Positions 13,447 to 14,565 of a stretch of DNA of 64,000 nt are shown here, in pieces (within the stretch, counting starts at the first letter, position 1; each line of letters begins with the position of its first letter). Location of the stretch: positions 3,266-67,265 of IMG/VR virus record IMGVR_UViG_3300021425_000029. One strand, written 5' to 3'. Made by a program: the position numbers and the translations under genes. A model generated the notes under the pieces. It saw only the letters and a program-made list of their open reading frames with translations, did not search any database and was not told the DNA's origin. Source of the stretch: a virus.

Positions 13447-13849
13447 TTCCATACTCATCTGTTACTGTTAATACCACTTCATCACCATCGGTGACATATG
13501 ATATACCCGTTCCTTCTATGTTGAACTCGCCCGATTCACTAGGGTTTTCTCCAAACATACTATCTACAATCTGTCTTGACAGTGTAGAATAAATTCTACT
13601 TTCTACATTACGAATAAATTTTGCGAGAGTTGTATTCTCGGCATCCCTCTCCAGTTGTTTCTGCAATTCTTCCAGTTCTTTCTTTATCGTTTCTTTTCTA
13701 CTATGTTCTTGATTCTCAATAGTCAGATAATGGGATGATTGATTGATACCACTAAAGGAAGGTGACTTGAATTCATGTTCAATGGGTGCAGCTTGCAATC
13801 CTGTTGCCACAAAAAACAACAACCCGAAACTAAGTCTCATTTTCTTCAT
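13403..13849 (-). CDS. csgF: Curli assembly protein CsgF-like
   Basis: Signal peptide then FKSPSFSG; C-terminal G.VTTITIP; adjacent to csgG. Confidence 0.8.
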   Translation of the reverse strand: MKKMRLSFGLLFFVATGLQAAPIEHEFKSPSFSGINQSSHYLTIENQEHSRKETIKKELEELQKQLERDAENTTLAKFIRNVESRIYSTLSRQIVDSMFGENPSESGEFNIEGTGISYVTDGDEVVLTVTDEYGNVTTITIPLGDFGI

Positions 13850-14087
13850 CCTGTTTTCTCCTCATCTCGATTGCGGTGTCTAGTTTCTGTTGCAATCGGA
13901 TAATATCATTATCAAGCATACGAATACGGTCAATCAACGCAATCAAAGTGACAGTGGCTTCGCTAAGTTGTTTTTCTACTTCTTCGGTGATGGTTTTCCA
14001 CACAAAGTAAATCATGTAGAGCATACCTACAGCAGCGACTATTGGGAATCCAAAGTCCTTGATTTGCGTTACTATGTCAACTTCCAC
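13830..14087 (-). CDS. Small membrane protein with coiled coil
   Basis: IKDFGFPI, one TM, DRIRMLDNDIIRL. Confidence 0.7.
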   Translation of the reverse strand: MEVDIVTQIKDFGFPIVAAVGMLYMIYFVWKTITEEVEKQLSEATVTLIALIDRIRMLDNDIIRLQQKLDTAIEMRRKQDEENET

Positions 14088-14365
14088 TAGTCTCGCCTCG
14101 CATCTTCTTTACCGTCCGCTCTACTGATACGGTTGAGGTCGGGTCTTATTCCGAGAACAACACACATAGTAGTATCCATACGAATCATATCATGATTCAT
14201 AGTTTTTACACGATTATCAAGGCTCCCCACAATCCCATGTAATGACTTCACCTGTCCGATTACGCCATCCATTATATACTTGAGTGTCAGAAACATAAAG
14301 AAACCACCTATTAAGGCGGATGCGATAGGAAACCCCAATTCTTTTATTAGGGTAAATATATCCAT
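14087..14365 (-). CDS. Small membrane protein with coiled coil (paralogue of neighbour)
   Basis: IKELGFPI, one TM, NRVKTMNHDMIRM. Confidence 0.7.
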   Translation of the reverse strand: MDIFTLIKELGFPIASALIGGFFMFLTLKYIMDGVIGQVKSLHGIVGSLDNRVKTMNHDMIRMDTTMCVVLGIRPDLNRISRADGKEDARRD

Positions 14366-14370
14366 GCTGG

Positions 14371-14378
14371 TATTTATA
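14371..14378 (-). promoter_or_regulatory. Late promoter TATAAATA for the curli-cyclase operon
   Basis: Exact TATAAATA, 5 nt before the ATG at 14365. Confidence 0.8.
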
Positions 14379-14538
14379 CGAATAAACTTTTAAAAGGACA
14401 AAAAAAATCCCCGACTTTGCGGGGATTCTTCTTTCGATTGTATTTGGTTTTATCGGGTACGACTTTCTGTCGGTAGGGACTGTCCTTGTCGAACAAGACC
14501 CGACCATGACGAGACTTTATTCTTTTTTCCTTTTTCAT
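14374..14538 (-). CDS. ArfA-like small basic protein (not in ORF track)
   Basis: 54 aa MKKEKRIKSRHGRVLFDKDSPYRQKVVPDKTKYNRKKNPRKVGDFFCPFKSLFV; GAGG RBS; late promoter at 14558-14565. Confidence 0.6.
   Translation of the reverse strand: MKKEKRIKSRHGRVLFDKDSPYRQKVVPDKTKYNRKKNPRKVGDFFCPFKSLFV
14400..14427 (-). terminator. Intrinsic terminator inside the ArfA-like ORF
   Basis: AATCCCCG-CAAAGT-CGGGGATT hairpin running into 8 U residues. Confidence 0.85.
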
Positions 14539-14557
14539 GACACACCTCTAAAACTAT

Positions 14558-14565
14558 TATTTATA
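14558..14565 (-). promoter_or_regulatory. Late promoter TATAAATA
   Basis: Exact motif upstream of the ArfA-like ORF. Confidence 0.75.

What the first reader, a model, noticed from the sequence alone, without database searches (positions are those of the whole stretch)
14374..14565. Unannotated ArfA-like peptide transcribed as a non-stop mRNA
Seen: late promoter, GAGG RBS and a 54-codon basic ORF (...LFDKDSPYRQKVVPDKTKYNRKK...). A strong intrinsic terminator (14400-14427) lies inside the ORF about 8 codons before the stop, and the read-through tail is hydrophobic (FFCPFKSLFV). Knowledge: ArfA has a similar P.(F/Y)RQ.V...K..Y.RK core and a hydrophobic tail, and ArfA/BrfA are made from truncated non-stop mRNAs so they accumulate only when tmRNA is saturated. 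Inference: a phage-encoded, tmRNA-gated ribosome rescue factor that keeps ribosomes recycling late in infection.
Basis: partly seen in the sequence, partly recalled or inferred. Interest (0 to 1): 0.8.

Follow-up and report, generated by a model that had tools for sequence, protein, structure and literature searches.

The report
Phage ArfA-like peptide lacking a stop
A marine T4-like phage carries a tiny, well-conserved gene resembling the bacterial ribosome-rescue factor ArfA, and a transcription terminator inside the gene probably means its message normally ends before the stop codon, as happens with ArfA.

Summary
Window 14374-14538 (-) is a 54-codon basic ORF behind an exact TATAAATA late promoter and a GAGG ribosome-binding site. 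A canonical hairpin plus T8 terminator (14400-14433) lies inside the ORF, 8 sense codons before the stop.

It is a real gene. 18 protein relatives and 64 viral loci were found, and dN/dS is 0.06 over codons 2-37. In the closer clade (31 of 31 loci) the first ~45 residues and the hairpin/T-run are kept. The tail after the T-run varies freely in length and sequence.

The window protein itself hits no Pfam model. Its wider family has 227 clusters of 40-60 aa peptides and overlaps Pfam DUF7230, whose clear members are Acinetobacter T4-like phage proteins. That family is a distant ArfA relative. Its profile finds only ArfA among solved structures (E 0.002). hhalign gives 89-91% probability, and 0 of 200 column shuffles come near. 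In 401 bacterial genomes its best hit is a true arfA.

Most of the wide family (146 of 150 clusters) lacks the internal terminator, so tmRNA gating is a clade-specific add-on.

Rescue activity and the non-stop transcript are inferred, not shown. Two phage papers already annotate "ArfA" in passing. I found nothing in print on DUF7230, and nothing on a non-stop design in a phage among the passages I read.

The parts
14558..14565 (-). T4-type late promoter TATAAATA. It overlaps the stop codon of the upstream 77-aa ORF.
   Evidence: 9 of 9 such sites in the window are on the minus strand. An exact copy lies within 70 nt upstream in 12 of 19 distinct closer homologues.
14545..14548 (-). GAGG ribosome-binding site, 6 nt before the ATG
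   Evidence: read directly
14374..14538 (-). Full 54-codon ORF including the stop (TAA 14374-14376)
14401..14538 (-). Conserved core, codons 1-46. This is the ArfA-like peptide expected from the terminated transcript.
   Evidence: conservation. dN/dS 0.063 over codons 2-37. hhalign to ArfA.
14400..14433 (-). Intrinsic terminator inside the ORF. A-rich 5' flank, core stem 14420-14427 / 14406-14413, loop 14414-14419, T8 14400-14407. It encodes ...KKNPRKVGDFF.
14377..14400 (-). Read-through tail, codons 47-54 (CPFKSLFV). Not conserved among homologues.
   Evidence: stop lies 16-52 nt after the start of the T-run; tails differ in length and sequence
14371..14378 (-). Next late promoter TATAAATA. 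It contains the ORF's stop codon and starts the downstream unit of small membrane proteins and csgF/csgG-like genes.

Best explanation
The gene encodes a phage version of the ArfA type of ribosome-rescue peptide. It belongs to a large, mostly phage-borne family that overlaps Pfam DUF7230.

Proposed mechanism:
1. It is its own small late transcription unit: TATAAATA, GAGG, then 46 conserved codons.
2. The unit's intrinsic terminator lies within the reading frame, so most transcripts should end in the U-tract at about codon 46, with no stop codon.
3. Ribosomes reaching that 3' end are normally freed by host tmRNA-SmpB, which tags the peptide for degradation.
4. When trans-translation is saturated, for example late in infection or when mRNAs are being cut, the untagged ~45-46 aa peptide accumulates.
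5. Its basic C-terminal half (KTKYNRKK...) then lies in the empty mRNA channel of stalled ribosomes.
6. Its hydrophobic VLF..SPY/F part recruits and activates a class-1 release factor, freeing the ribosome without tagging the phage protein.

Shown here: a real conserved gene, a conserved in-frame terminator, and distant homology to ArfA over ArfA residues 9-50. Inferred: that termination is efficient, tmRNA tagging, ribosome binding, use of a release factor, and the benefit to the phage.
For: Real gene:
- 18 relatives and 64 viral loci.
- dN/dS 0.063 over 91 pairs of 14 sequences.
- 227 clusters at E<=1e-3 in the exhaustive profile search.

Terminator:
- It lies in the ORF in 31 of 31 closer loci, which make 21 distinct sequences including the window. 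Hairpins fold at -9.9 to -14.0 kcal/mol.
- 97.8% of 134 stem cells pair. One C-G to U-A double change turns Arg into Cys and Gly into Arg in the peptide.
- A 3-nt loop deletion keeps the stem.
- Tails after the T-run are unconstrained.

ArfA relation:
- The A3 profile against 177,635 PDB sequences gives 7 hits at E<=10. Six are ArfA (E 0.0019-0.032) and the seventh is nucleolin at E 1.6.
- hhalign of A3 against ArfA alignments gives 91.4% (E 8.9e-7) and 88.7% (E 2.6e-6, 39 columns).
- Column shuffles: 0 of 200 reach score 33. Mean 8.6, sd 1.8, max 15.3. The reversed alignment scores 10.2.
- 15 of 132 members touch Pfam ArfA (best E 3.7e-4) and 59 of 132 touch DUF7230.
- Among 401 sampled bacterial genomes the profile's best six-frame hit is a true arfA.
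- The DUF7230 model's only hit in an Escherichia genome lies on arfA, though at E 0.99.

Aligned positions. ArfA L19, L20, D22, F25, R26, V29, Y39, R41 and K42 align to L15, F16, D19, Y22, R23, V26, Y33, R35 and K36. [quoted passage not shown]

Precedents:
- ArfA is made from a non-stop mRNA, and full-length ArfA with its hydrophobic tail is unstable (PMC3989581, passages).
- BrfA has a rho-independent terminator inside its ORF (PMC6881298, passages).
- A bacterial ArfA found here (L151) also has an in-ORF hairpin plus T8 and a tail beginning CFFW.
Against: - The window protein alone matches no Pfam, NCBIfam or PDB entry.
- PF03889 and PF23876 both find nothing in the window's own record.
- The narrow alignment A2 gives only 6-9% hhalign probability to ArfA, and its profile does not find ArfA in the PDB. 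The link therefore rests on the wide family profile.
- ArfA's invariant KGKGS block is absent: there is a 3-residue gap at that point. ArfA P23 and L24 align to S and P.
- An arfA-bearing genome (G001) was not matched by A3 at E<=1e-3.
- 146 of 150 listed clusters and 0 of 19 distant viral representatives show an internal terminator, so the family does not need gating.
- Covariation in the stem amounts to one event. 7 of 500 shuffles reach the observed score.
- Terminator efficiency with T4-type late transcription is unknown.
- The host is unknown.
- No expression data exist: no RNA holder was listed.
- The hydrophobic tail may simply reflect T-rich DNA.
Confidence: 0.5

Rival explanations
1. 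It is an ArfA-like ribosome peptide, but it is not gated. The terminator merely ends the late unit and drifted into the 3' end of a tightly packed gene. Enough read-through, or transcripts from upstream promoters, yields a full-length protein whose tail does not matter.
For: Most family members have ordinary stops and hydrophilic ends. In Ac42 the terminator follows the stop by a few bases, so a lost stop codon would place it in frame. Some clade members have only T5 followed by CTTAT, which is a weaker U-tract.
Against: No in-frame stop precedes the hairpin in 31 of 31 loci, even though a stop before the hairpin would be an easy change. Tails differ by indels and frame, which is not expected of a translated functional segment. 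The same layout occurs in BrfA and in a bacterial ArfA (L151).
Confidence: 0.2
2. It binds the ribosome's mRNA channel but does something other than rescue. Examples: it blocks host tmRNA-SmpB, ArfA or ArfB access; it parks or protects vacant ribosomes; or it biases translation towards phage messages.
For: The best-conserved part is the basic half (KVV.DKTKY.RK). ArfA's KGKGS block is missing, and ArfA P23 and L24 are not kept residue for residue.
Against: The similarity extends into ArfA's N-terminal minidomain (residues 9-25), including the L19 and F25 positions that contact RF2.
Confidence: 0.17
3. It is a generic basic nucleic-acid-binding peptide, for example for DNA or RNA condensation or as a virion internal protein. 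On this view its likeness to ArfA is convergent or compositional.
For: The sequence is very short and lysine/arginine-rich. Direct searches with the window protein are blank.
Against: Column-shuffled ArfA alignments of the same composition never score near the real one: 0 of 200, max 15.3 against 33.0. ArfA is the only family found in the PDB. A six-frame search of 401 genomes returned arfA as its top hit.
Confidence: 0.08

Closest known systems
ArfA (alternative ribosome-rescue factor A, Pfam PF03889; E. coli YhdL)
   Same: - A small basic peptide with a hydrophobic N-terminal part and a basic C-terminal part. It aligns over ArfA residues 9-50.
- The Y-x-R-K motif is kept, and most of the wide family also has the following K-H.
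- A hairpin lies inside the ORF, followed by a hydrophobic, dispensable tail.
   Different: - The window protein scores below every Pfam threshold.
- The KGKGS block is missing.
- E. coli arfA is cut by RNase III at its hairpin. Here the hairpin is a textbook intrinsic terminator.
- It is phage-borne and driven by a late promoter.
- The release factor it would use is unknown.
BrfA of Bacillus subtilis
   Same: It has a rho-independent terminator inside the coding region, leaving about 9 untranslated codons. The product accumulates only when trans-translation fails (PMC6881298, passages). The gene layout is the same as here.
   Different: I found no sequence relation and did not test for one. 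BrfA is a chromosomal gene of a Gram-positive bacterium.
Pfam DUF7230 (PF23876), e.g. Acinetobacter phage Ac42 gp003
   Same: Same family by transitive homology. 14 of 32 and 59 of 132 relatives match the model. Ac42 gp003 scores 51.6 bits and an unannotated phage 133 ORF scores 48.8 bits.
   Different: - The window protein itself does not reach the model.
- Ac42 gp003 has a normal stop with the terminator after it, and lies beside rIIA in what is an early region in T4 (recalled).
- No function is recorded for DUF7230, and no paper mentions it.
Phage genes already annotated as ArfA: pelagiphage HTVC027P gp30 and Citromicrobium phage RXM g10
   Same: These are phage-encoded, ArfA-annotated small proteins. 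gp30 was reported as highly expressed early and late (PMC12753301, passages; PMC8953757, passage).
   Different: - gp30 keeps the K-K-G-R-G-S block, but scores only 20.2 bits against a cut-off of 25.5 in my scan.
- gp30 does not align to the A3 profile: hhalign probability 0.7%.
- In the passages I read, neither paper discusses a non-stop design.
- I did not examine RXM g10.

Membership tests
ArfA (PF03889) | Match to the Pfam ArfA model at or above its gathering score (25.5 bits) | tested here: not met
   Window ORF: 0 families at E<=10. Own viral record: 0 matches. Relatives: 1 of 32 at E 0.2 and 15 of 132 with best E 3.7e-4. The calls show no member above the cut-off.
ArfA (PF03889) | Detectable homology to ArfA by profile methods, with controls | tested here: met
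   Met for the wide family profile A3. PDB search: only ArfA, E 0.0019. hhalign 91.4% and 88.7%. 0 of 200 shuffles reach the score. A true arfA is the top six-frame hit in 401 genomes. Not met for the narrow alignment A2: 6-9%.
ArfA (PF03889) | Hydrophobic N-terminal minidomain that contacts RF2 (L19, L24, F25; P23 at the decoding centre; A18) | tested here: inconclusive
   By the alignment: A18 to V14, L19 to L15, L20 to F16, P23 to S20, L24 to P21, F25 to Y22 (F in most relatives). L15, F16 and P21 are at least 90% conserved in A3. Residue roles come from PMC5378476 passages. The Pro and Leu order is shifted by one residue.
ArfA (PF03889) | Basic C-terminal tail with the K-G-K-G-S-Y-x-R-K block that fills the mRNA channel | tested here: inconclusive
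   Y33, R35 and K36 align to Y39, R41 and K42. R35 is at least 90% conserved. The G-K-G residues are deleted in the whole phage family. K34-S38 and R41 are invariant among the 15 ArfA sequences aligned.
ArfA (PF03889) | Synthesis from a non-stop mRNA made by a hairpin inside the ORF | tested here: inconclusive
   The sequence feature is present and conserved in 31 of 31 closer loci. The transcript 3' end is not testable here, and no RNA run was listed.
ArfA (PF03889) | RF2-dependent peptidyl-tRNA hydrolysis on ribosomes with an empty A-site mRNA channel | not testable with these tools
   This needs biochemistry.
DUF7230 (PF23876) | Match to the model at or above 27 bits | tested here: not met
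   Window ORF: no hit. Relatives reach it: L035 at 27.1 bits, Ac42 gp003 at 51.6 bits. Membership of the window protein is by transitive homology only. It is 52% identical to L035 in A2.

The most novel reading that the evidence does not exclude
DUF7230 and its many unnamed relatives are a large, mainly phage-borne branch of the ArfA superfamily. Phages of very different hosts would then routinely bring their own release-factor-dependent ribosome-rescue peptide. These hosts include the alphaproteobacterial hosts SAR116, rhizobia and roseobacters, which lie outside the beta- and gammaproteobacterial subsets reported to have ArfA, as well as Acinetobacter. One marine T4-like clade has gone further and wired the peptide to host tmRNA capacity through an in-frame terminator. 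That would give the phage a built-in sensor of translational distress, possibly a counter to RNA-cutting abortive-infection defences.
Probability: 0.35. Interest if true: 0.8.

Novelty: new variant of a known kind. Interest (0 to 1): 0.66.

Why it matters
Ribosome rescue is treated as a bacterial housekeeping matter. ArfA is reported only in subsets of beta- and gammaproteobacteria (Schaub 2012, as cited in PMC3989591). If the family is a true ArfA branch, three things follow:
- A family of unknown function (DUF7230) gets a testable function.
- Many phages would be shown to manipulate the rescue of stalled ribosomes.
- There would be a natural case of a virus reading the load on the host's tmRNA system.

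It is directly testable with the standard E. coli ssrA/arfA genetics and reconstituted translation assays already used for ArfA and BrfA.

Tried and rejected
Searches and comparisons that gave nothing, or less than hoped:
- Direct searches with the window protein were blank: Pfam, NCBIfam and PDB phmmer. PHROGs gave two weak hits to families of unknown function.
- Megablast of 1.6 kb against phages gave no match.
- tblastn of the ORF against phages gave 6 records, none significant (best E 2).
- tblastn with P0200 gave no match.
- The narrow alignment A2 did not reach ArfA.
- The family was not found in Phage C48C1, Melnitz, Mosig or HTVC008M: 0 of 4.
- HTVC027P gp30 did not align to the A3 profile, so I do not use its published expression pattern as evidence for this gene.
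- RNA evidence: no RNA holder was listed.
- No structure prediction was run. ArfA is ordered only on the ribosome, so I judged that a monomer model of a 46-aa basic peptide would say little.

Ideas considered and not pursued:
- The gene might be a small RNA rather than a protein gene. Rejected on dN/dS 0.063.
- RNA polymerase slippage on the T8 run might supply a stop. By my reading, one extra U would give a stop four codons later. This was not tested and the feature is not conserved.

Limits on what I could see:
- The ArfA alignments used for hhalign are dominated by Enterobacteriaceae. The genome scan returned only close relatives, and only three diverse ArfA sequences were added.
- A3 holds the window plus 131 of the 150 listed representatives. 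I left out 19 by eye, mostly those with long N- or C-terminal extensions, and also P0018.
- The claim that Neisseria gonorrhoeae arfA uses its hairpin as a terminator is my recollection of Schaub et al. 2012. That paper is not held, so I did not see it.
- Supplements were not opened. Table S3 of PMC12753301 may bear on gp30 expression.

Full report
WHAT IS THERE

The window is a fragment of an uncultured marine T4-like myophage. The record is a 67,265-base IMG/VR entry, and CheckV puts it at 37% complete. It carries T4-type portal, sheath, terminase, DNA polymerase and helicase genes. Its portal is 70.6% identical to Phage C48C1 and about 53% identical to the Methylophilales phage Melnitz and Pelagibacter phage Mosig group.

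Upstream lies an exact TATAAATA (14558-14565), which overlaps the stop of the preceding 77-aa ORF. GAGG sits six bases before the ATG. All nine TATAAATA sites in the window are on this strand. Shuffles give a mean of 2.8, and 0 of 100 reach nine. From general knowledge of T4, TATAAATA is the late-promoter element.

Inside the ORF lies a canonical intrinsic terminator. The stem is AATCCCCG / CGGGGATT with a six-base loop, followed by T8 at 14400-14407 and preceded by an A-rich stretch. An 81-nt fold gives -19.1 kcal/mol. The T-run falls in codons 44-47. Eight sense codons follow, and the stop codon sits inside the next TATAAATA (14371-14378), which heads the downstream genes. The gene is therefore a self-contained promoter-to-terminator unit whose terminator comes before its stop codon.

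IS IT A REAL GENE?

Yes.
- The word-indexed search gave 18 relatives, E 8e-24 to 9e-9.
- A scan of viral contigs gave 64 loci.
- Among 14 clade sequences, dN/dS over codons 2-37 is 0.063 across 91 pairs.
- An exhaustive profile search gave 227 clusters (at 50% identity) with E<=1e-3. Nearly all are peptides of 40-60 residues.

THE TERMINATOR ACROSS HOMOLOGUES

In loci L001-L031, the closer clade, the first ~45 residues are conserved. The hairpin and T-run lie inside the ORF in 31 of 31 loci. With the window these make 21 distinct sequences. Hairpins fold at -9.9 to -14.0 kcal/mol, T-runs are 5-9 long, and the stop lies 16-52 nt after the start of the T-run. After the T-run the predicted tails share neither length nor sequence.

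On an alignment of the 21 sequences, 97.8% of 134 stem cells pair.
- Four distinct rows show C-G changed to U-G.
- One pair changes on both sides, C-G to U-A, in L021-L023. That turns Arg into Cys and Gly into Arg in the peptide.
- Two loci have a 3-nt loop deletion.

This says the stem, rather than the amino acids it encodes, is what is kept. Formally, though, the covariation is a single event, and 7 of 500 shuffles reach the observed score.

An exact TATAAATA lies within 70 nt upstream in 12 of 19 distinct clade representatives.

Against a general rule, none of 19 more distant viral representatives has a terminator in the ORF. Only 4 of the 150 listed clusters carry the hairpin-encoded N-P-R-K-x-G-D-F signature. 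The rest end in short hydrophilic tails with ordinary stops.

WHAT FAMILY IS IT?

The window protein alone hits nothing in Pfam, NCBIfam or the PDB. Neither the ArfA model nor the DUF7230 model finds anything in the window's own record.

Its relatives do reach a family. 14 of 32 and 59 of 132 match Pfam DUF7230. The clear members of that family are proteins of Acinetobacter T4-like phages. Ac42 gp003 scores 51.6 bits, and an unannotated 36-aa ORF of phage 133 scores 48.8 bits.

Further cultured-phage relatives appear in 86 records at weak tblastn E-values: Acinetobacter 63, Sinorhizobium 7, Agrobacterium 5, Roseobacter 3, Rhizobium 3 and others. They include an unannotated 53-aa ORF in Puniceispirillum phage HMO-2011 (DUF7230 24.2 bits).

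The family is rare in bacterial chromosomes. Only 2 of 401 sampled genomes of the phylum had a match. No paper mentions DUF7230.

IS IT RELATED TO ArfA?

Evidence for a relation:
- The profile of the wide family (A3: the window plus 131 representatives) was searched against all 177,635 distinct PDB sequences. It gives seven hits at E<=10. Six are ArfA chains (E 0.0019-0.032) and the seventh is nucleolin at E 1.6.
- hhalign of A3 against an enterobacterial ArfA alignment gives 91.4% probability, E 8.9e-7.
- Against an alignment that also holds three diverse ArfA sequences from other genomes, it gives 88.7%, E 2.6e-6, over 39 columns covering ArfA residues 9-50.
- Shuffling the columns of the ArfA alignment 200 times gave scores of 8.6 +/- 1.8 (max 15.3) against the real 33.0. 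The reversed alignment scored 10.2. Composition therefore does not explain the match.
- 15 of 132 members touch Pfam ArfA below threshold, best E 3.7e-4.
- In the 401-genome six-frame search, the best hit of the phage-family profile is a bona fide arfA (E 9.7e-5).
- Conversely, the DUF7230 model's only hit in an Escherichia genome falls on arfA, though at a non-significant E of 0.99.
- The Atlas feature search lists a DUF7230 cluster first (0.90) and an ArfA cluster at rank 29 (0.87). This is a lead only.

Evidence against:
- The narrow clade alignment reaches only 6-9% probability, and its profile misses ArfA in the PDB.
- One arfA-bearing genome was not matched at E<=1e-3.
- ArfA's invariant K-G-K-G-S block is replaced by a three-residue gap.
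- HTVC027P gp30, published as ArfA, scores 20.2 bits against a cut-off of 25.5 and does not align to A3.

I read this as distant homology at about 0.8, not as membership of Pfam ArfA.

HOW THE ALIGNED RESIDUES MAP ONTO FUNCTION

In the cryo-EM work on ArfA and RF2 (PMC5378476, passages read):
- The C-terminus lies in the mRNA tunnel.
- L19, L24 and F25 form the hydrophobic patch that binds Trp319 of the RF2 switch loop.
- P23 contacts A1492 and A1493.
- A18 sits in the core of the N-terminal minidomain.

By the alignment these positions correspond to V14 (A18), L15 (L19), S20 and P21 (P23 and L24, with the order shifted), and Y22 (F25; F in most relatives). The basic half aligns Y33-x-R35-K36 with Y39-x-R41-K42. 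L15, F16, P21 and R35 are at least 90% conserved across A3. The parts of ArfA that do the work are thus broadly represented. The fit is not residue-perfect, and which release factor would be used cannot be told.

MECHANISM PROPOSED

The gene is transcribed late from its own promoter and terminated in the U-tract at about codon 46, so it should yield a message without a stop codon.

From established knowledge of ArfA (PMC3989581, passages) and BrfA (PMC6881298, passages), such a message is a substrate of tmRNA-SmpB. The product is tagged and degraded while trans-translation has spare capacity, and it accumulates untagged when that capacity is exceeded. BrfA uses exactly this layout, a rho-independent terminator inside the ORF. 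One bacterial ArfA recovered here (L151) also has an in-frame hairpin plus T8 with a tail beginning CFFW, and another (L150) has an ordinary stop. ArfA itself therefore shows both designs.

I recall that Schaub et al. 2012 showed a terminator-type hairpin for a neisserial arfA. I could not read that paper.

The benefit to the phage is inferred. It would keep ribosomes recycling, without tagging phage proteins, late in infection or when messages are being cut.

Shown: the anatomy, its conservation, and the distant homology. Inferred: termination efficiency, tagging, ribosome binding and release-factor recruitment.

RIVALS

- The same peptide without gating, with the terminator merely drifted into the frame: 0.2.
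- A channel-binding peptide with another role, such as blocking host rescue factors or parking ribosomes: 0.17.
- A generic basic nucleic-acid binder whose ArfA likeness is convergent: 0.08. The controls argue against this one.

NOVELTY

Phage genes annotated as ArfA have been mentioned in passing in two papers: HTVC027P gp30 (PMC12753301) and Citromicrobium phage RXM g10 (PMC8953757). I read passages only. Neither passage treats regulation.

My searches turned up no paper dealing with DUF7230, with phage ArfA families, or with a non-stop design in a phage. The terms were 'DUF7230', 'PF03889', 'ArfA' + 'phage-encoded' + 'ribosome rescue', 'ArfA' + 'phage genome' + 'ribosome', and 'alternative ribosome-rescue factor' + 'pelagiphage'. 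The library is limited to open papers.

I class the finding as a new variant of a known kind: a phage-borne, DUF7230-type ArfA relative carrying the non-stop design.

VERDICT

Interest is 0.66.

Noticed in passing
L157 1287-1448 (Puniceispirillum phage HMO-2011, GU557055.1): An unannotated 53-aa ORF of the same family lies between annotated genes 01 and 02. DUF7230 scores 24.2 bits, and the A3 profile gives E 7.8e-4 for the record. Its N-terminal N-P-V-A-K-A-L-L stretch resembles ArfA's N-A-I-E-A-L-L.
   Followed up: partly
L159 510-620 (Acinetobacter phage 133, HM114315.1): An unannotated 36-aa DUF7230 ORF (48.8 bits) overlaps the end of Acj133p022. Its Ac42 counterpart, gp003, is annotated as hypothetical and lies just upstream of rIIA.
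   Followed up: partly
L151 942-1106 and L150 140-256 (unnamed bacterial genomes G112, G062): Two bacterial ArfA genes with opposite designs. One has an in-ORF hairpin plus T8 terminator and a hydrophobic tail. The other has an ordinary stop straight after K-H-R.
   Followed up: partly
window 13830-14365 (-): Two adjacent paralogous small membrane proteins of 85 and 92 aa, both phrog_18771, follow the next late promoter and precede the csgF/csgG-like genes. The 85-aa one has weak holin and spanin-like hits (E 0.003-0.01).
   Followed up: no
window 14400-14407 (-): By my reading of the sequence, one extra U in the T8 run would bring a TAA into frame four codons later. The idea was not tested, and the feature is not conserved in the homologues.
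   Followed up: no
This may be a prophage or a phage contig binned with the genome. The neighbour was not identified.
   Followed up: no
P0147 and P0258 (representative clusters): Two members keep the K-H of the ArfA-like Y-x-R-K-x-K-H motif and then add the hairpin-encoded N-P-R-(K/R)-x-G-D-F-F. The terminator therefore seems to have been appended after the complete motif.
   Followed up: no
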